Shown in pieces: positions 25,605 to 30,895 of a stretch of 64,000 bases of DNA (the stretch's first letter is position 1; the number at the start of each line of letters is the position of its first letter). Location: IMG/VR virus record IMGVR_UViG_3300022745_000018, positions 64,001 to 128,000 of that record, one strand, 5' to 3'. The notes below the pieces were generated by a model that searched no databases, was not told the origin of the DNA, and saw nothing but the letters and a program-made list of their open reading frames with translations. Made by a program: the position numbers and the translations under genes. This stretch comes from a virus.

Positions 25605-25691
25605 TGGAGCGGGTGACAGGATTCGAACCTGCGTAAACTATTCGCCGCTTGCTTGGAAGGCAAGTGCTCTGACCAACTGAGCTACACCCGC
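25605..25691 (-). tRNA. tRNA-Gly(TCC) with an abnormally long (15-nt) variable region
   Basis: GCGGGTG acceptor, CTTGC-CTTCCAA-GCAAG, TTCGAAT, T-CCA. Confidence 0.9.
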
Positions 25692-25747
25692 ATGATTTTA
25701 AATAACTTCAAGATCAATTTTATTTCAAATTCGATCATGTAGTTGAT

Positions 25748-25839
25748 TGGTGGAGACGGTGAGATTTGAACTCACGGACCTATTTCTAAGCCGACGATTT
25801 TCAAGATCGTTGCAATCAGCCGGACTCTGCCACGTCTCC
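25748..25839 (-). tRNA. tRNA-Ser(TGA)
   Basis: ACGAT-CTTGAAA-ATCGT, long variable arm, A-CCA. Confidence 0.9.
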
Positions 25840-25861
25840 GATAATTAAGTTGATTCCAAAC

Positions 25862-25938
<77 letters not shown>

Positions 25939-25956
25939 TCAAAACCTACAATTCAA

Positions 25957-26032
25957 CGGTTCCATCTGTTGGATTCGAACCAACGACCTCCCGCTTACAA
26001 GGCGGATACTCTTCCAGCTGAGTTAAGATGGA
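25957..26032 (-). tRNA. tRNA-Thr(TGT), genomic 3' end ACCG (no encoded CCA)
   Basis: TCCGC-CTTGTAA-GCGGG; TCCATCT/AGATGGA acceptor. Confidence 0.85.
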
Positions 26033-26034
26033 TC

Positions 26035-26123
26035 TGGTGCGAAAAGAGAGACTCGAACTCTCACGGTATTTAACTCCCGCCAGAACCTAAATCTGGTGCG
26101 TCTACCAATTTCGCCATTCTCGC
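26035..26123 (-). tRNA. tRNA-Leu(TAG)
   Basis: CCAGA-TTTAGGT-TCTGG, long variable arm, A-CCA. Confidence 0.9.
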
Positions 26124-26135
26124 ACTGTTTATCAT

Positions 26136-26504
26136 TTATTCACAATTTGTGGTGCCTCGAGCTGGATTCGAACCAGCGACCTTCACCTTATCAAGATGAT
26201 ACTCTACCAACTGAGTTACCGAAGCATGTTCTCTTATGTACTGAGTGATCTTGTACGAATTTGCTACGGTATTGGAAAGATTCTCTTGCAGCAAACTCAG
26301 TACATCGTCCGGATAAGTCTTGAGCCAATGAACGGAGCCATACCATTCCAAACCAAATAACCGAACGAAAAACTTCTTTTTGTATTCAGCTTCAGCTGCT
26401 TCACGACGCTGAAAGAACAATCGATGCAAAGTTTCTGCTTCTGCACGAAGTCGAGCATCTTCTTCCAGCAATTCACCAAGACTTGCAATTTCTTTCTCAT
26501 TCAT
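26136..26504 (-). CDS. Hypothetical protein whose 3' end runs through tRNA-Ile
   Basis: 122-aa ORF; the last ~30 codons overlap the tRNA on the same strand. Confidence 0.5.
   Translation of the reverse strand: MNEKEIASLGELLEEDARLRAEAETLHRLFFQRREAAEAEYKKKFFVRLFGLEWYGSVHWLKTYPDDVLSLLQENLSNTVANSYKITQYIREHASVTQLVEYHLDKVKVAGSNPARGTTNCE
26150..26225 (-). tRNA. tRNA-Ile(GAT)
   Basis: TCATC-TTGATAA-GGTGA, canonical D and T arms, A-CCA. Confidence 0.85.
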
Positions 26505-26606
26505 TTCTCAGAATCCTTAAACTCAAGACCAACTGTGTGAACGACTTCTTCTATCCATTGATCACGAGTTCCATTGTATTTCATGATATCCTCATTGTTG
26601 AATGCA

Positions 26607-26632
26607 ATTATATCATACGCTCAACATGTGGT
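26607..26632 (-). promoter_or_regulatory. ACYACA-box promoter inside the tRNA cluster
   Basis: ACCACA-14nt-TATAAT. Confidence 0.7.
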
Positions 26633-26637
26633 TGTTT

Positions 26638-26731
26638 TGGTGGCGAAAGTGGGATTCGAACCCACGGGGCGTCTATTCAACACCCGACGGCTTAGCAAGC
26701 CGCTGATTTAAACCAGCTCATCCATCTCGCC
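26638..26731 (-). tRNA. tRNA-Ser(GCT)
   Basis: GCGGC-TTGCTAA-GCCGT, long variable arm, A-CCA. Confidence 0.9.
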
Positions 26732-26736
26732 GATGT

Positions 26737-26812
26737 TGGACGCGGAAGAGGGACTTGAACCCTCGACACATGACGTATGAAGCCACTGCTCTACCAACTG
26801 AGCTATTCCGCG
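26737..26812 (-). tRNA. tRNA with CAT anticodon (elongator Met or Ile2)
   Basis: GTGGC-TTCATAC-GTCAT; CGCGGAA/TTCCGCG acceptor, T-CCA. Confidence 0.8.
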
Positions 26813-26813
26813 G

Positions 26814-26886
26814 CAAATCTGGTAGGATTCGAACCTACGACCTTCGGTTTTGGAGACCGACGCTCTGCCAATTGAGCTACAGACTT
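26814..26886 (-). tRNA. tRNA-Trp(CCA), no encoded CCA end
   Basis: TCGGT-CTCCAAA-ACCGA; G73 lies 1 nt before the next tRNA. Confidence 0.88.
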
Positions 26887-27367
26887 ATGTTGTTTTATTC
26901 TTGGGAACGAACGTTTCGTCCAACGGTTTCCAAGTAATCGTTGTGAAATTCAGATCGAAATCTGGAATCGGTAACTCAGACGGTTCAATCACGTCTTTGA
27001 TGTTGTAGGCAACAGTCATATGACACTTATATGAAGGATACGTGCTCGTTGCGCCGTTATTCAATAGTACCCTATTCAATGCAGCGGCATAACGACTATC
27101 TATCCTCAGAACGAGACATTTACCTTCCGTCTTTGTCGGAAAGACTTCCCATTCAACTGGAGTTCCCGTGCATGAATTTGGTGTTGCTAAAGTAAACGGT
27201 TTCTTGATCGGTATATCGTCGATAGGTGTCTGCGAATAGATCACTGTGACGTGATACGTATCCGGGTCCAATCGTTCAGATAGACCAAACTTTTCAACGA
27301 AAGCGTCCAACTTATCCTTAGATTCCTCATCAGGATTTAGACAAACAAAAACTCCATCCAAACTCAT
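26885..27367 (-). CDS. 2H phosphoesterase, T4 gp57B/Acb1-like (candidate anti-CBASS nuclease)
   Basis: Two HxT motifs (YHVTVIYS, CHMTVAY), GATSTYPSY; located next to tRNAs as 57B is in T4; start moved to MSLDG. Confidence 0.75.
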   Translation of the reverse strand: MSLDGVFVCLNPDEESKDKLDAFVEKFGLSERLDPDTYHVTVIYSQTPIDDIPIKKPFTLATPNSCTGTPVEWEVFPTKTEGKCLVLRIDSRYAAALNRVLLNNGATSTYPSYKCHMTVAYNIKDVIEPSELPIPDFDLNFTTITWKPLDETFVPKNKTT

Positions 27368-27380
27368 GCGATTCTCCAAA

Positions 27381-27530
27381 TCACCAATGTCTGATAACAC
27401 CAGCGATGATAAAAATGTTAGTAATCACCGCGCTCAAGACCAAAATTGATCTAATGATTGCGACTCTATCGGCTTCATTGTTAGATGAACCAGATTTTTC
27501 TCCAAGAGCCTTTGCCCAAATTCTCCACAT
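27381..27530 (-). CDS. Small membrane protein (49 aa, not in ORF track)
   Basis: MWRIWAKALGEKSG...EADRVAIIR...ITNIFIIAGVIRHW, a motif recalled from T4-like aquatic phages. Confidence 0.7.
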   Translation of the reverse strand: MWRIWAKALGEKSGSSNNEADRVAIIRSILVLSAVITNIFIIAGVIRHW

Positions 27531-27548
27531 CACAAACCCTTCATTTCA

Positions 27549-27625
27549 TGGAACGCCGAGAGAGATTTGAACTCTCGAAAAATGGATTTGCAATCCATCG
27601 CATTAGACCACTCTGCCATCGGCGC
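27549..27625 (-). tRNA. tRNA-Cys(GCA)
   Basis: ATGGA-TTGCAAA-TCCAT, T-CCA. Confidence 0.9.
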
Positions 27626-27627
27626 AC

Positions 27628-27701
27628 TGGGGTGTAGTCGGGAATCGAACCCTGGCCAATTGGGTCACAACCAATTATTCTACCACTAAACTAACTACAC
27701 C
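27628..27701 (-). tRNA. tRNA-His(GTG)
   Basis: ATTGG-TTGTGAC-CCAAT, G-1:C73, imperfect T stem. Confidence 0.85.
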
Positions 27702-27708
27702 ATAAACA

Positions 27709-27785
27709 TGGCGGCTCGTATGGGACTCGAACCCATGACCTCCACCGTGACAGGGTGGCGCTCTAACCAACTGAGCTAACGAACC
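27709..27785 (-). tRNA. tRNA-Asp(GTC)
   Basis: CCACC-CTGTCAC-GGTGG, G-CCA. Confidence 0.92.
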
Positions 27786-27865
27786 ATTGAAGATTGCATA
27801 TACAATCCTCAGGAAATCCGACTGCAGAATTTATATAGACGCGCTGCAGCCTCCGCGCCATTGTC

Positions 27866-27940
27866 TGGCAGAGGAGGTAGGAATCGAACCTACGAATGTC
27901 GGGATCAAAACCCGATGCCTTACCATTTGGCTACTCCCCA
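27866..27940 (-). tRNA. tRNA-Gln(TTG)
   Basis: TCGGG-TTTTGAT-CCCGA, TAGCCAA D arm, G-CCA. Confidence 0.9.
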
Positions 27941-27947
27941 ACAAAAT

Positions 27948-28022
27948 TGGTACGACGTGCATGATTTGAACATGCGACCGACGGATTATGAGTCCGCTGC
28001 TCTACCGCTGAGCTAACATCGT
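27948..28022 (-). tRNA. tRNA with CAT anticodon (Ile2 or Met)
   Basis: GCGGA-CTCATAA-TCCGT, A-CCA. Confidence 0.85.
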
Positions 28023-28024
28023 AT

Positions 28025-28116
28025 TGGCTCCACTCCGAGGATTCGAACCTCGCTCCTACTTAATTCAGAACCTCCGGTTAACAGCCGGGTGCCTTCGCCT
28101 AGCCAGCACGAGTGGA
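28025..28116 (-). tRNA. tRNA-Asn(GTT) with a ~20-nt variable region and atypical D arm
   Basis: TCCACTC/GAGTGGA acceptor, CCGG-CTGTTAA-CCGG, G-CCA. Confidence 0.82.
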
Positions 28117-28120
28117 ATAT

Positions 28121-28216
28121 TCAAATCTTTTTAGATTTACTCTCTATCAAAACAGCATTTCCATGATGGAGGAACACAGATTTCCACTTTTCAACCAATT
28201 GCTCTACTGTTTTCAT
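28121..28216 (-). CDS. 31-aa mini-ORF resembling the gp23 capsid N-terminal propeptide
   Basis: MKTVEQLVEKWKSVFLHHGNAVLIESKSKKI; AGGA upstream; fills the Tyr-Asn spacer. Confidence 0.4.
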   Translation of the reverse strand: MKTVEQLVEKWKSVFLHHGNAVLIESKSKKI

Positions 28217-28239
28217 AAACGAGATCGTCCTATCAAATG

Positions 28240-28332
28240 TGGTGGGTGTGGTTGGAGTTGAACCAACAATGTTTACCACGAGGGGACGGGTTTACAGCCC
28301 GCCGATGCACACACCATAGCATCAACACACCC
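28240..28332 (-). tRNA. tRNA-Tyr(GTA) with an extended 5-bp D stem
   Basis: GCGGG-CTGTAAA-CCCGT, GATGC/GCATC D stem, A-CCA. Confidence 0.87.
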
Positions 28333-28338
28333 AATGAA

Positions 28339-28548
28339 CTTTATACACCTGACGACTCATTCGTCACGCCAGTTTTATTCGTGACCATTTTACCGATACG
28401 ATGAAGCAGCTGCTCGGATTGTGGTACGTAGAATTTAGTTGATAGCGGAGTTTACTAGTTTAGCCTCATTCGCAGAGATTCACTCGTTCGCACGGGTTTC
28501 GAAGCCGCACTTTCTCAACATCTACAACAAATCACCAGGTGTATAAAG
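28339..28548 (-). ncRNA. Putative structured ncRNA (~210 nt) closed by a 13-bp terminal stem
   Basis: CTTTATACACCTG ... CAGGTGTATAAAG; no credible ORF. Confidence 0.6.
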
Positions 28549-28559
28549 ACCGACATGCG

Positions 28560-28647
28560 GTACCATTGTTGAAACATGCTATGGGACCACGCTATAGGGG
28601 CATCGGTCATCCTCCCCAAGCTAATTAACATGTTTCAACAATGGTAC
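28560..28647 (-). ncRNA. Putative ncRNA/hairpin with a 19-bp stem overlapping the tRNA-Glu 3' end
   Basis: GTACCATTGTTGAAACATG ... CATGTTTCAACAATGGTAC. Confidence 0.55.
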
Positions 28648-28718
28648 TCAGTACGGGATTCGAACCCGTGTTACCGCCGTGAAAGGGCGGTGTCCTAGGC
28701 CAGCTAGACGAACTGAGC
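28642..28718 (-). tRNA. tRNA-Glu(TTC)
   Basis: CCGCC-CTTTCAC-GGCGG, GTCTAG..CTAGGAC D arm, A-CCA. Confidence 0.92.
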
Positions 28719-28725
28719 ATTGAAT

Positions 28726-28801
28726 TGGTCTCGGATGGAGGATTTGCACCCCCGGCCTCATGGTCCCAAACCATGCGCTCTACTCACTGAGCTAATCCGA
28801 G
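28726..28801 (-). tRNA. tRNA-Pro(TGG), variant T loop TGCAAAT
   Basis: CATGG-TTTGGGA-CCATG, C1:G72, A-CCA. Confidence 0.87.
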
Positions 28802-28859
28802 AAACATTTCGTTTGATGACTATTTATCAGTCTCTCGATTGATCTTTGGTGAAAAATCA

Positions 28860-28988
28860 ATTTTAACAGATGATGCTCTGACCTCTGGAGTCTTTTTCAC
28901 CGCGCTGGTTAGGCTGCTTCATACCGAGACTCGGGTACCAGCCAAGTTTATCGGTCTGCTATCAGTGATGAACATCATCTATTAAAAT
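28860..28988 (-). ncRNA. Putative structured ncRNA (~130 nt), 16-bp terminal stem
   Basis: Minus strand ATTTTAATAGATGATG/CATCATCTGTTAAAAT with one G.U pair. Confidence 0.6.
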
Positions 28989-29097
28989 CACTTCAATGGG
29001 TACGACTTGATACGTACTTGAGAAGATCACAAGTACGTCTCGAACCGTATCGCAACTCACCTACTGCATGTCCTATCCATGCCGCCACTGAAATGAT
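28987..29097 (-). ncRNA. Putative tRNA-shaped ncRNA (~110 nt), 13-bp terminal stem
   Basis: ATCATTTCAGTGG/CCATTGAAGTGAT (2 G.U), D-like arm GCATG/CATGC, T-like arm GTACG-TATCAAGT-CGTAC. Confidence 0.55.
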
Positions 29098-29102
29098 ATT
29101 CT

Positions 29103-29310
29103 ATATCTCAACTTCAGTGTTTCGATGCATGCTAAGATCGGCTTTCCAAGACGTTACTGATTGTAGCTGACGGGAGCGACCCGATTGCTGTGGCGTTTCA
29201 CCACCAATCTTTCCTACAAAACACGAAGTATTCGTGTGAGTGAAAGAAGCAAAACTGCCCTATCCGATGACTGCTTTTGTCCATGCATCGAAACACTGAA
29301 GTCGAAATAT
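29103..29310 (-). ncRNA. Putative structured ncRNA (~210 nt), 21-bp perfect (29-bp with G.U) terminal stem
   Basis: ACTTCAGTGTTTCGATGCATG / CATGCATCGAAACACTGAAGT plus internal hairpins. Confidence 0.65.
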
Positions 29311-29313
29311 TCC

Positions 29314-29618
29314 ATTGATAGTAGTTGCCACTGTAATTTCCGGCATTCACCATCACAACCACAAACTAATCTGCATTGCTACTCGTAAACTTGCAAATTA
29401 AGTATTGCCGTTCCATCTTTTGCATCGTTTAGTTCGCGTCTGTGATGCGTATCAGCCTACGCATTTACTATCAATTCTGCCTACCAGTCACTCTGGTGCT
29501 CCGCGTTGCTGGTAACGAACCAAGGCAGAATTGATAGCAGTGGGGTTCCACTACCCACACTCGAGTTTGATTACTGCGGTTCACTCCGCATATGGACTTA
29601 GAGATCTTGACTATCAAT
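29314..29618 (-). ncRNA. Putative ncRNA(s) delimited by four alternating ATTGATAG/CTATCAAT repeats
   Basis: Copies at 29314, 29468, 29530 and 29611; inner 15-bp stem 29468-29482/29523-29537. Confidence 0.55.
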
Positions 29619-29626
29619 AACATTCA

Positions 29627-29743
29627 TGGAGTGGCTGGAGGGATTCGAACCCACGACTCGCCCATGTTAGGAAATGTACATCTCATTAACATGTCGGCTG
29701 TGCATTATTCAGCTCATAACTCTACCAACTGAGTTACAGCCAC
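29627..29743 (-). ncRNA. tRNA-like RNA with canonical D and T arms and CCA but no anticodon arm (replaced by two hairpins)
   Basis: GTGGCTG-TA-ACTC-AGTTGGTA-GAGT ... GTGGG-TTCGAAT-CCCTC-CAGCCAC-T-CCA; terminal stem extended to 17 bp (29621-29753). Confidence 0.7.
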
Positions 29744-29759
29744 TCCATGAATGCTTTGT

Positions 29760-29786
29760 TGGTGCGCCTGGAGAGATTCGAACTCC
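29760..29786 (-). pseudogene. 3' fragment of a tRNA (T loop + CAGGCGC-A-CCA, Arg-like acceptor)
   Basis: GGAG-TTCGAAT-CTCTC-CAGGCGC-ACCA with the 5' half missing; abuts the endonuclease gene. Confidence 0.65.
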
Positions 29787-29822
29787 ATAAATATCATCAA
29801 ACTTTATTACACCACTGTTGTC

Positions 29823-30605
29823 ATGTCATACCAAAGATTGAAGTCATCCTGTTTGTCATGTAAAAGACTGATTTCTGCTAATTTATTAACCACACATGTG
29901 TCTAGCAAATCGTGTCAAACATACAAACAACCAAATATCATAAACGGACATTGTAGATTTTGCAATTTGCGCATGGCAGAAATAGAAAACAAAGAACGTG
30001 GAAATCACGTAAAATGGTGCAAAGAAAACCCAGAACGCGGCTTCATGAATGGTTCAAGACAAGCCATCTGCAATCAAATGAACACACCCGCTGCTAGATC
30101 AAAAGCAGTTCTTGGTATAAAAGCAGCCCACGCTAGTGGGCGATACGATGCATCCAATATCAGAAAGAAGAACAAACCCAGACATTCACACTCAATAGAA
30201 ACTAAAGCAAAATTATCAAAGATTGCTAGAGAATCGAAACACAGAAGAATTTGCAAAAGAACACACCAGTTCGTTGATAAAAGAGGGCGTGTTTATAAAT
30301 TCGATTCTTCATGGGAAGATGCACTAGCAACACGATTAGATGAACTAGATATCGAATGGACAAGACCGCATGAACCGATACCATATATCCTGAATGGTAA
30401 ACAACACCACTATTTCCCAGACTTCTTTTTACCAGATTACGATGTTTATCTAGACCCGAAAAACAGTTTCGTCATGAAACAACAATTGGAAAAGATAACG
30501 ATCATTTCCAATTCTGTGAAATTGATATGCATTACGTCTTTGAACGAATGTAAAAGTTTTTCAGTAGATTATATGAGCGCCAGACTGGACTCGAACCAGC
30601 ATTGA
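29823..30605 (+). mobile_element. Free-standing homing-endonuclease-like gene (Zn-finger-like N-terminus, NUMOD3-like HSIETKAKLS, C-terminal PD-(D/E)xK domain)
   Basis: FDSSWE...YFPDFFLP...YLDPKN; antisense to the tRNA cluster; A-rich; ATAAATA late-promoter-like motif at 29787-29793; start moved to MSYQR. Confidence 0.75.
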
Positions 30606-30651
30606 TTCCATTACACTGCTACGCTTTAGAAGAGCGTTGTGATACTGGCGC
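30576..30651 (-). tRNA. D-armless tRNA-Arg(TCT)-like RNA with a 20-nt variable region
   Basis: GCGCCAG-TATCACA-ACGCT-CTTCTAA-AGCGT-(20 nt)-GCTGG-TTCGAGT-CCAGT-CTGGCGC-T; stem extended to 15 bp (30569-30659). Confidence 0.6.
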
Positions 30652-30663
30652 TCATATAACCCA

Positions 30664-30767
30664 CAATTCAAAAGAACAATAACGTCTCTTCAATGCATCA
30701 GGCACATCAAAGCCATGTTGGTGGCGGCAACATCTTGGAAAAGAGTCCGCATCGTTCTTTTGAATTG
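30664..30767 (-). ncRNA. Putative structured ncRNA (~104 nt), 17-bp terminal stem
   Basis: Minus strand CAATTCAAAAGAACGAT ... ATTGTTCTTTTGAATTG (one G.U), internal hairpin ATGTTG-CCGCCAC-CAACAT. Confidence 0.55.
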
Positions 30768-30868: not shown

Positions 30869-30895
30869 ATTTTATACAAGACTCATTCATGTGGT
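30869..30895 (-). promoter_or_regulatory. ACYACA-box promoter at the head of the ncRNA/tRNA cluster
   Basis: ACCACA-15nt-TAAAAT-TCATCCATCGACAAAC. Confidence 0.8.

What the first reader, a model, noticed from the sequence alone, without database searches (positions are those of the whole stretch)
28339..30767. Back-to-back array of stem-closed non-coding RNA units embedded in the tRNA operon
Seen: between tRNA-Tyr and the promoter at 30869-30895, nearly all non-tRNA, non-endonuclease DNA is tiled by units whose ends are long inverted repeats. These are 28339-28548 (13 bp), 28560-28647 (19 bp), 28860-28988 (16 bp), 28987-29097 (13 bp), 29103-29310 (21 bp perfect, 29 bp with G.U), 29314-29618 (four repeats), 29621-29753 (17 bp), 30569-30659 (15 bp) and 30664-30767 (17 bp). 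Several abut with gaps of 0-6 nt, and each has different stem and interior sequences. Every non-Watson-Crick position I traced in these stems is a G.U pair on the minus strand, the tRNA strand, which is the signature of selection on RNA rather than DNA. Known: T4 carries two stable RNAs of unknown function in its tRNA cluster, and long stems are RNase III-type substrates. Inference: this is a polycistronic cassette of about nine distinct structured RNAs released from one early transcript. They may be decoys or inhibitors of host tRNA-targeting, RNA-sensing or translation machinery. This is the best candidate for an undescribed system in the window.
Basis: partly seen in the sequence, partly recalled or inferred. 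Interest (0 to 1): 0.9.

Follow-up and report, generated by a model that had tools for sequence, protein, structure and literature searches.

The report
Stem-clamped small RNA cassettes in phage tRNA operon
An uncultured freshwater T4-like phage carries, at the head of its tRNA operon, about ten different small structured RNA genes, each clamped shut by its own long stem; two are tRNA look-alikes, three have relatives in unrelated phages, and this expands on phage T4's two long-unexplained stable RNAs.

Summary
On the tRNA (minus) strand, 28339-30767 holds 9 of the genome's 13 units closed by 16 or more pairs, and every unit with 20 or more. All 19 non-Watson-Crick pairs in the closing stems are G.U on that strand, none on the other, so the selection acts on RNA.

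The units are not one family:
- Unit 8 is a tRNA-Arg(UCU) with a rewired D region. The type occurs in 47 viral loci and is supported by covariation.
- Unit 7 is a tRNA mimic without an anticodon arm.
- The core of unit 5 recurs in a podovirus-like contig, and that of unit 6b in cultured Curvibacter phage P26059A. In both cases the clamps have different sequences.
- Unit 2 is a hairpin that starts in the 3' end of tRNA-Glu. It recurs at that position in two other phages with covarying stems.

Similar arrays occur in other phage tRNA operons, and one whole clamped module is shared between two otherwise dissimilar arrays.

Best reading: these are independent small RNA genes, co-transcribed with the tRNAs and excised and stabilised through sequence-independent leader-trailer duplexes, probably by host RNase III. 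What the cargo RNAs do is unknown. Nothing matches Rfam beyond tRNA.

Earlier AI notes of this scan describe the same kind of array on other DNA. The closest known case is T4 rnaC/rnaD.

The parts
30664..30767 (-). Unit 9: a 104-nt stem-closed RNA module with an 18-pair clamp that includes 2 G.U. It is the first unit of the array.
   Evidence: Fold z -5.2. It forms a separate MFE domain and was picked up by the stem scan. No homologue was found.
30564..30664 (-). Unit 8: a non-canonical tRNA-Arg(UCU) with body 30576-30651, wrapped in a 20-pair leader-trailer stem. The acceptor pairs 30651-30645 with 30583-30577. A 3-bp D-like helix (30641-30639 with 30616-30614) encloses the anticodon arm (30637-30621, anticodon at 30630-30628). 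A 13-nt linker bearing GG (30613-30601) leads into the T arm (30600-30584). No CCA is encoded.
   Evidence: Rfam tRNA scores 36.4 bits with the D arm skipped, and ARAGORN misses it. The pattern scan found 47 IMG/VR loci. Over 34 distinct sequences, 97% of cells are paired, the covariation score is 0.79 against 0.21 for shuffles, and the D-like helix is 100% paired with GC/AU/UA/CG types. Only 4 hits, all in MAG contigs, were found across 185,579 prokaryote species genomes.
29751..30605 (+). A 284-aa endonuclease ORF antisense to the operon, which interrupts the array. It is not an RNA unit.
   Evidence: PHROG endonuclease and Holliday-junction-resolvase families, E 2e-12 to 4e-9. The Pfam Phage_endo_I hit is weak and below cut-off.
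29762..29790 (-). An orphan tRNA 3' half (T arm, acceptor 3' strand and ACCA) lying inside the endonuclease ORF. Its acceptor strand matches unit 8's in 6 of 7 positions, and its T arm resembles unit 7's.
   Evidence: Read directly from the sequence. Direct-repeat families D1 and D3. BLAST matches to tRNA 3' halves in other loci.
29619..29755 (-). Unit 7: a tRNA mimic (body 29630-29743) with acceptor, D arm, T arm and U73-CCA. The anticodon and variable region is replaced by about 55 nt of other hairpins. It is closed by a 19-pair stem that buries the CCA.
   Evidence: Rfam tRNA scores 40.4 bits with 55 nt inserted in place of the anticodon arm. Fold z -7.5. The interior has no homologue.
29314..29618 (-). 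Unit 6: a composite domain. An outer 8-9 bp closure encloses 6a (about 29530-29618), 6c (a 17-pair hairpin, 29466-29539), a small hairpin, and 6b (29352-29446, about 19 closing pairs).
   Evidence: The core of 6b is 72% identical over 101 nt to Curvibacter phage P26059A (L128:2484-2573). The clamp differs in sequence, with 5 compensatory pairs (4 in the clamp, 1 in an inner helix). The covariance model R1 finds only these two members in 634 kb.
29103..29310 (-). Unit 5: a 208-nt multi-junction RNA. P1, the 29-pair clamp, pairs 29310-29282 with 29131-29103. P2 pairs 29268-29264 with 29141-29137. P3 pairs 29262-29257 with 29152-29147. P4 is a variable hairpin at 29247-29208. The conserved hairpins are P5 (29204-29190) and P6 (29189-29165).
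   Evidence: Fold z -7.3. The homologue L094:11615-11808 (minus strand) is 93% identical over the 61-nt core 29144-29204, while P1, P2 and P4 have unrelated sequences. Independent MFE folds of the two give the same topology. L094 is a podovirus-like contig.
28987..29097 (-). Unit 4: a 111-nt three-way-junction module with a 13-pair clamp (2 G.U).
   Evidence: No homologue was found.
28858..28990 (-). Unit 3: a 133-nt module with a 21-pair clamp (4 G.U). It abuts unit 4.
   Evidence: No homologue was found.
28642..28801 (-). Canonical tRNA-Pro(UGG) and tRNA-Glu(UUC) embedded within the array.
   Evidence: ARAGORN and Rfam.
28560..28647 (-). Unit 2: an 88-nt long hairpin with a 22-pair clamp. 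Its 5' arm begins in the last 6 nt (including the CCA) of tRNA-Glu.
   Evidence: z -6.9. Positional counterparts directly after tRNA-Glu occur in L062 (1251-1412) and L050 (6620-6701). Beyond the tRNA-constrained first 7 bp, the stems change on both strands.
28339..28548 (-). Unit 1: a 210-nt multi-branched module with a 23-pair clamp (5 G.U). It is the last unit before tRNA-Tyr.
   Evidence: No homologue was found.

Best explanation
The stretch is a battery of about ten independent small RNA genes at the promoter-proximal end of the phage's tRNA operon, transcribed on the minus strand together with the tRNAs. Each RNA is a 'cargo' fold closed by its own long leader-trailer duplex of 13-29 pairs, mostly 17-23. 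The duplex works through its shape, not its sequence. It makes each module fold on its own. Most likely it is also the substrate for a double-strand-specific nuclease (host RNase III, since the phage encodes none) that cuts the polycistronic transcript into discrete hairpin-ended RNAs resistant to exonucleases.

The cargos are of different kinds:
- a topologically rewired but probably functional tRNA-Arg(UCU);
- an anticodon-less tRNA mimic;
- at least two non-tRNA RNA families shared with unrelated phages;
- a hairpin that sequesters the 3' end of tRNA-Glu;
- several modules found so far only in this phage.

Shown: RNA-level, strand-specific selection; discreteness of the units; conserved cores with compensatory clamps; and a whole clamped module shared between two otherwise dissimilar arrays.

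Inferred: co-transcription, RNase III cleavage, stability, and any function of the cargos.
For: - Enrichment of clamped units is about 50-fold over the rest of the genome.
- Closing stems hold 19 G.U against 0 A.C here, and 56 against 18 in units of other phages oriented by their tRNAs.
- A span-limited MFE fold recovers the units as separate domains on the minus strand only.
- Every clamp has a different sequence. Clamps are nevertheless retained where the cargo is conserved: unit 5 against L094 (29 against 16 pairs, unrelated sequence, P2 changed at all 5 pairs), and unit 6b against the Curvibacter phage. The hairpin after tRNA-Glu (unit 2) recurs at the same position in three phages with covarying stems, although its interior is not conserved.
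- Units abut with gaps of 0-6 nt.
- L050 and L062 share a 160-nt clamped module at 94% identity while their flanks are unrelated, and the homology ends at the clamp.
- In other phages, units with at least 17 pairs on the tRNA strand are 4 times denser in tRNA zones than outside. Arrays occur in L032, L050, L062, L056 and L128.
- In other phages some canonical tRNAs sit inside such clamps, which fits a processing role.
- T4 has two annotated stable RNAs in the same operon position.
Against: - No expression or end-mapping data could be obtained.
- The proposed promoter is not supported by the consensus scan.
- Five units (1, 3, 4, 7 interior, 9) have no detected homologue, so their interiors are untested.
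- The unit 5 and 6b families each rest on only two distinct sequences.
- RNase III involvement is an argument from stem length and sequence independence only. The host and its RNase III specificity are unknown.
- Clamps may serve only as folding insulators or protein-binding stalks.
- Arrays this dense are seen in a minority of related phages.
Confidence: 0.6

Rival explanations
1. The clamps are only processing or insulation scaffolds of the tRNA operon, and most interiors are decayed tRNA genes or neutral structured spacer. The heavy structure might, for example, keep a long untranslated transcript free of Rho loading sites. On this view there is no independent cargo function.
For: Two interiors are tRNA-like and one orphan tRNA half lies in the array. 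Five interiors have no detectable homologue. In unit 2 the clamp is conserved while the interior varies from 82 to 162 nt. Canonical tRNAs sit inside clamps in other phages.
Against: The unit 5 core is 93% identical across a myovirus and a podovirus-like contig while its helices P1, P2 and P4 are replaced. The unit 6b core is conserved in a Curvibacter phage. Whole clamped modules are shared between otherwise dissimilar arrays. Rfam's tRNA model does not match units 1-6 or 9 even at E up to 10.
Confidence: 0.17
2. The units are Y-RNA-like 'handle' RNAs that dock a Ro60/Rsr-type ring protein, as earlier notes of this scan propose for ACAGCAA-box RNAs in other phage tRNA arrays.
For: The heptamer ACAGCAA lies in the invariant core of unit 5 (29185-29191, minus strand). 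Units are stem-closed and some mimic tRNA, as YrlA does (Chen et al. 2014, PMC4201824). The lead came from earlier AI notes.
Against: No TROVE, DUF2828 or RtcB gene is present in the 99%-complete genome. The YrlA model gives only sub-threshold hits on tRNAs. The heptamer occurs once in the array and follows an internal hairpin, not an end-to-end 7-bp stem. It occurs 17 times in the window against 10.6 expected by chance. The YrlA 5' motif GNCGAAN0-1G occurs once, at a 3' end. The clamps share no sequence.
Confidence: 0.06
3. The inverted repeats are DNA-level features: miniature mobile elements with terminal inverted repeats, or cruciform or hairpin targets of the endonuclease encoded in the middle of the array.
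For: An endonuclease with weak similarity to junction-resolving enzymes sits in the array. Modules move between phages as units.
Against: The G.U to A.C asymmetry of 19:0 cannot arise from selection on duplex DNA. Every unit has different arms, so no common recognition sequence exists. There are no flanking target-site duplications. Arms 60-300 nt apart do not readily extrude cruciforms (established knowledge). The asymmetry follows the tRNA strand in other phages too.
Confidence: 0.04

Closest known systems
Phage T4 rnaC (species 1) and rnaD (species 2) small stable RNAs
   Same: They are non-coding RNAs of 119-139 nt encoded head to tail within the tRNA operon of a T4-type phage, on the tRNA strand and next to tRNA-Arg and a homing endonuclease (T4 annotation). 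rnaC carries a T-arm-like hairpin, as unit 7 does. Their function is unknown.
   Different: There is no sequence similarity beyond the T loop. The T4 RNAs lack long leader-trailer clamps. Here there are about ten units instead of two, each with a 13-29 pair clamp, and some are shared with unrelated phages.
RNase III processing stalks: the leader-trailer duplexes around 16S/23S rRNA and the hairpins between phage T7 early mRNAs (established knowledge, not tested here)
   Same: In both, a long duplex whose sequence does not matter is formed by the two flanks of a product RNA within a polycistronic transcript. Stem length is about two helical turns. Covariation keeps the pairing.
   Different: Cleavage has not been demonstrated here. 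The products would be small RNAs of 70-210 nt of many kinds. The phage has no RNase III gene and the host is unknown.
Bacterial and phage Y RNAs (YrlA/YrlB) bound by Rsr/Ro60 (Chen et al. 2014, PMC4201824; Rfam RF02553)
   Same: They are small RNAs closed by a long terminal stem, some with a tRNA-like domain, and some are encoded by phages.
   Different: There is no Ro60-type gene, no YrlA model match and no 5' GNCGAA motif. In unit 7 the clamp extends the acceptor stem, whereas in YrlA the terminal stem stands elsewhere relative to the tRNA-like domain.
D-armless mitochondrial tRNAs and other non-canonical tRNAs (review PMC7609411). This is the comparator for unit 8 only.
   Same: These are tRNAs that depart from the cloverleaf in the D region while keeping the acceptor, anticodon and T arms.
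   Different: Unit 8 keeps a D-like helix and a GG-bearing loop but in a different strand order. The helix encloses the anticodon arm and the loop follows it. The review has no hit for the terms phage, virus or permuted.

Membership tests
T4-type small stable RNAs of phage tRNA operons (rnaC/rnaD) | Non-tRNA, non-coding units encoded inside the tRNA gene cluster on the tRNA strand | tested here: met
   The units lie between and upstream of tRNAs on the minus strand. The G.U asymmetry fixes the strand. The T4 arrangement is shown.
T4-type small stable RNAs of phage tRNA operons (rnaC/rnaD) | Sequence or structure homology to rnaC or rnaD | tested here: not met
   Only T-loop strings match. The T4 RNAs lack long clamps.
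T4-type small stable RNAs of phage tRNA operons (rnaC/rnaD) | Accumulate as discrete, stable, processed RNAs during infection | not testable with these tools
   No transcript data are available.
RNase III processing stalk | A leader-trailer duplex of roughly two helical turns enclosing the product | tested here: met
   Clamps of 13-29 pairs, with nine units at 17-29 pairs.
RNase III processing stalk | Pairing conserved while sequence is free (compensatory change) | tested here: met
   Unit 2 in three phages. Unit 5 against L094. Unit 6b against L128, with 5 compensatory pairs, 4 of them in the clamp.
RNase III processing stalk | Cleavage by RNase III | not testable with these tools
   No phage RNase III gene. 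The host is unknown.
tRNA (Rfam RF00005) | Score above the gathering threshold with a complete cloverleaf | tested here: inconclusive
   Units 7 and 8 score 40.4 and 36.4 bits against a cut-off of 29, but only by skipping the anticodon arm (unit 7) or the D arm (unit 8). ARAGORN finds neither. The unit 8 family has its own covarying fold. The other units do not match.
YrlA / Y RNA with Ro60 (Rsr) | Match to the YrlA covariance model, the 5' GNCGAAN0-1G motif, and a TROVE-domain gene nearby | tested here: not met
   sub-threshold hits on tRNAs only; one motif, at a 3' end; no TROVE or DUF2828 gene.
ACAGCAA-handle RNAs noted earlier in this scan | An end-to-end stem of about 7 bp followed by 2 nt and ACAGCAA, repeated across the units, with a Ro60-like gene | tested here: not met
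   The heptamer occurs once in the array, after an internal hairpin of unit 5. No Ro60-like gene was found. The definition of the handle is known to me only from AI notes.
Miniature inverted-repeat mobile elements | Shared terminal inverted repeats among copies, and target-site duplications | tested here: not met
   All arms differ. There are no flanking duplications. The strand asymmetry argues for selection on RNA.

The most novel reading that the evidence does not exclude
Phages of several unrelated lineages draw on a shared, horizontally exchanged library of clamp-closed small RNAs, including tRNA mimics and a rewired tRNA, which they load into their tRNA operons. These RNAs would act as decoys or inhibitors of host tRNA-targeting, RNA-sensing or translation-control systems. 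That would make them an RNA counterpart of the protein anti-defence genes, such as the Acb1 homologue that sits in the same operon.
Probability: 0.2. Interest if true: 0.88.

Novelty: new variant of a known kind. Interest (0 to 1): 0.72.

Why it matters
T4's two stable RNAs in its tRNA cluster have had no assigned function for about fifty years. This array suggests they are the small visible part of a much larger and more diverse class of phage small RNAs with a recognisable gene architecture: a cargo plus a sequence-free clamp. That architecture could be searched for systematically.

A homologous cargo and a comparable array occur in a cultured phage-host pair, Curvibacter phage P26059A on strain IMCC26059. 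The question can therefore be tested directly at the bench.

Separately, unit 8 shows that a tRNA can apparently keep its arms while the order of its D-region strands is rewired. This is of interest for tRNA structure, for tRNA gene finders (ARAGORN misses it), and for how phages supply AGA decoding.

Tried and rejected
- Rfam at gathering and at E up to 10: only tRNA-type hits.
- GenBank phages, near and distant modes on all parts: only tRNA matches, plus one weak hit that led to the Curvibacter phage.
- The nearest relatives by flanking protein are only about 44% identical, and their loci held no tRNAs.
- Acb1-based locus search: nothing.
- Exact-word scans for unit 7 and unit 1 gave nothing real. 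The metagenome scan for the unit 5 core returned only the same contig as L094. A gapped pattern for unit 5 gave chance hits only. L129 is a doubtful third member of the 6b family. Covariance model R1 found no further 6b members in 634 kb.
- Homology to T4 rnaC/rnaD was rejected.
- The Y-RNA/Ro60 reading and the ACAGCAA-handle reading were tested and not met.
- The mobile-element and cruciform reading was rejected on strand asymmetry, unique arms and absence of target duplications.
- Phage-encoded RNase III, CCA-adding enzyme and RtcB: absent.
- The consensus promoter and terminator scan gave no support for the proposed promoter, and hits were at or below the shuffle expectation.
- Literature searches found no description of such arrays. 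The library is incomplete, so this is weak evidence of novelty.
Full report
**Context.** The window is bases 64001-128000 of a 171.9-kb, 99%-complete IMG/VR virus record. Its genes mark it as a distant T4-like phage: topoisomerase II large subunit, DNA ligase and others, with the topoisomerase at most 44% identical to those of cultured phages. Eighteen canonical tRNA genes lie on the minus strand at 25605-28801. Also in the operon are an Acb1 (anti-CBASS) homologue at 26885-27400 and, antisense to it, a 284-aa endonuclease ORF at 29751-30605.

**Observation.**
- Perfect inverted repeats of at least 12 bp with a span of 60-330 nt number 14 in the whole genome, and 7 of them lie in 28339-30767.
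- A strand-specific scan that allows G.U pairs finds nine minus-strand units here with 17-29 closing pairs. The maximum elsewhere in the window is 15. All units with at least 20 pairs in the genome are here.
- A span-limited MFE fold of the minus strand yields the same units as separate domains. The plus strand does not give them.
- Each unit folds better than its shuffles, with z from -2.7 to -7.5.
- The closing stems contain 19 G.U and no A.C pairs (p 4e-6). After correcting for the G+U-rich composition of the strand, p is about 2e-5.
- The units share no repeats other than T-loop strings, have no flanking duplications, and abut with gaps of 0-6 nt.

The proposed promoter is not supported by the consensus scan.

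**What the units are.** Rfam finds only tRNA-type matches. Two of these were missed by ARAGORN: 29630-29743 (unit 7) and 30576-30651 (unit 8).

Unit 8:
- A degenerate pattern taken from it and from one relative found 47 IMG/VR loci. Only four hits came from one genome each of 185,579 prokaryote species, all in MAG contigs, two of them of phage-genome size.
- In 34 distinct sequences the fold is: acceptor; two nucleotides; a 3-bp helix that encloses a normal anticodon arm carrying UCU; a 13-nt GG-containing linker; then the T arm.
- This fold is 97% paired, with a covariation score of 0.79 against 0.21 for shuffles. The 3-bp helix is 100% paired through GC, AU, UA and CG.
- My reading is that the D 5' strand plus the D loop have been moved to behind the anticodon arm, which keeps the stacking topology. 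This is inference.
- Many members encode CCA, and ARAGORN finds no tRNA-Arg gene in the phage. Unit 8 is therefore probably a working tRNA.

Unit 7 has an acceptor, D arm, T arm and CCA, but about 55 nt of other hairpins stand where the anticodon arm should be.

Unit 5:
- It has one homologue, L094:11615-11808, in a podovirus-like contig. The metagenome record found is the same contig.
- The 61-nt core is 93% identical.
- Independent folds of the two give the same junction, while the clamp (29 against 16 pairs), P2 (all five pairs changed) and the P4 hairpin have unrelated sequences.

Unit 6 and unit 2:
- Unit 6 is composite. Its sub-unit 6b (29352-29446) matches a unit of cultured Curvibacter phage P26059A with a different clamp and 5 compensatory pairs (4 in the clamp, 1 in an inner helix).
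- Unit 2 is a hairpin starting in the last six nucleotides of tRNA-Glu. The same arrangement follows tRNA-Glu in L062 and L050, with the stems changed on both strands and interiors of 82-162 nt.

Units 1, 3, 4, 9 and the interior of unit 7 have no detected homologue.

**Recurrence elsewhere.**
- Relative G001 has two 23-pair units directly upstream of its first tRNA, again with G.U only on the tRNA strand.
- L062, L050 and L056 carry arrays inside tRNA clusters.
- The Curvibacter phage has, in a 1-kb unannotated gap, a tRNA-Arg followed by at least four clamped units. One of these is a tRNA-like RNA that its authors listed as tRNA-Pyl (PMC5964084).
- Across other phages, units with at least 17 pairs on the tRNA strand are four times denser in tRNA zones than outside, and their stems hold 56 G.U against 18 A.C.
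- L050 and L062 share only patches. One patch is a whole clamped module at 94% identity, whose homology ends at the clamp. Modules therefore appear to be exchanged as cassettes.

**Mechanism.** The clamp is kept, but its sequence is free, and it is about two helical turns long. This is the signature of a duplex read through its shape. The best-known precedents are the RNase III stalks around rRNAs and between T7 early RNAs (established knowledge). The phage has no RNase III, CCA-adding enzyme, RtcB, TROVE or DUF2828 gene, so a host enzyme would have to act. I put 0.6 on the whole model of independent RNA genes excised and stabilised through clamps. Within that, I put about 0.85 on 'functional RNA genes' and about 0.5 on RNase III specifically. 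The functions of the cargos are open.

**Comparison with known systems.**
- T4 rnaC and rnaD occupy the same genomic niche. They share no sequence with these units and have no clamps.
- The Y-RNA reading fails each membership test. So does the ACAGCAA-handle reading, although that heptamer lies in the invariant core of unit 5.
- DNA-level readings are excluded by the strand asymmetry.

**Earlier notes.** AI notes of this scan describe similar clamped cassette arrays in tRNA operons of other freshwater phages, and one of them also points to RNase III stalks. I treat them as leads, not as evidence. I found no paper describing such arrays, but the library is incomplete.

**Limits.**
- No transcript data were available.
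- The unit 5 and 6b families have two distinct members each.

Noticed in passing
window 30576-30651 (minus); L037-L083; L131-L134: A family of tRNA-Arg(UCU) genes with a rewired D region: a 3-bp helix encloses the anticodon arm and a GG-bearing loop follows it. It occurs in 47 IMG/VR loci but in only 4 MAG contigs among 185,579 prokaryote species genomes. ARAGORN does not detect it. L051/L077 appear to hold three related copies in a row.
   Followed up: yes
window 29762-29790 (minus), inside ORF 29751-30605 (plus): An orphan tRNA 3' half with ACCA. Its acceptor strand resembles unit 8's and its T arm resembles unit 7's. It lies inside an antisense endonuclease gene whose other end overlaps unit 8. 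This looks like the scar of an endonuclease-gene insertion into a tRNA gene.
   Followed up: partly
window 26885-27400 (minus): A 171-aa Acb1 (anti-CBASS phosphodiesterase) homologue (Pfam E 7e-20) is embedded between tRNA genes. In T4 the counterpart gene 57B lies close to the tRNA cluster.
   Followed up: no
L128:1900-2950 (Curvibacter phage P26059A, KY981271): A 1-kb unannotated gap in a cultured phage holds a tRNA-Arg followed by at least four stem-closed units. The published 'tRNA-Pyl' is a tRNA-like cargo inside a 17-pair clamp. A conserved tail motif follows two consecutive clamps there and follows unit 6b in the window.
   Followed up: partly
L050:6777-6870 and L062:985-1078; L050:6328-6437 and L062:587-697: Further short patches of 93-100% identity between two otherwise dissimilar tRNA-operon regions, in a different order relative to tRNA-Glu. 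This is more evidence of module shuffling.
   Followed up: no
genome 56380-56640, 51448-51593 and 46917-47195 (outside the window, upstream of it): Three further inverted-repeat units with 16-19 closing pairs lie elsewhere in the genome. One is equally good on both strands. They were not examined.
   Followed up: no
window 29614-29800 (minus): An alternative 19-pair helix (5 G.U) would enclose the orphan tRNA half together with unit 7, in competition with unit 7's own clamp. Unit 6 likewise has mutually exclusive closures through four 8-mers.
   Followed up: no
L131 (184.6-kb contig) and L133 (201.5-kb contig): Contigs filed in bacterial MAGs carry the virus-type rewired tRNA-Arg and are of T4-like phage genome size. 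They may be phage genomes binned as bacteria.
   Followed up: no
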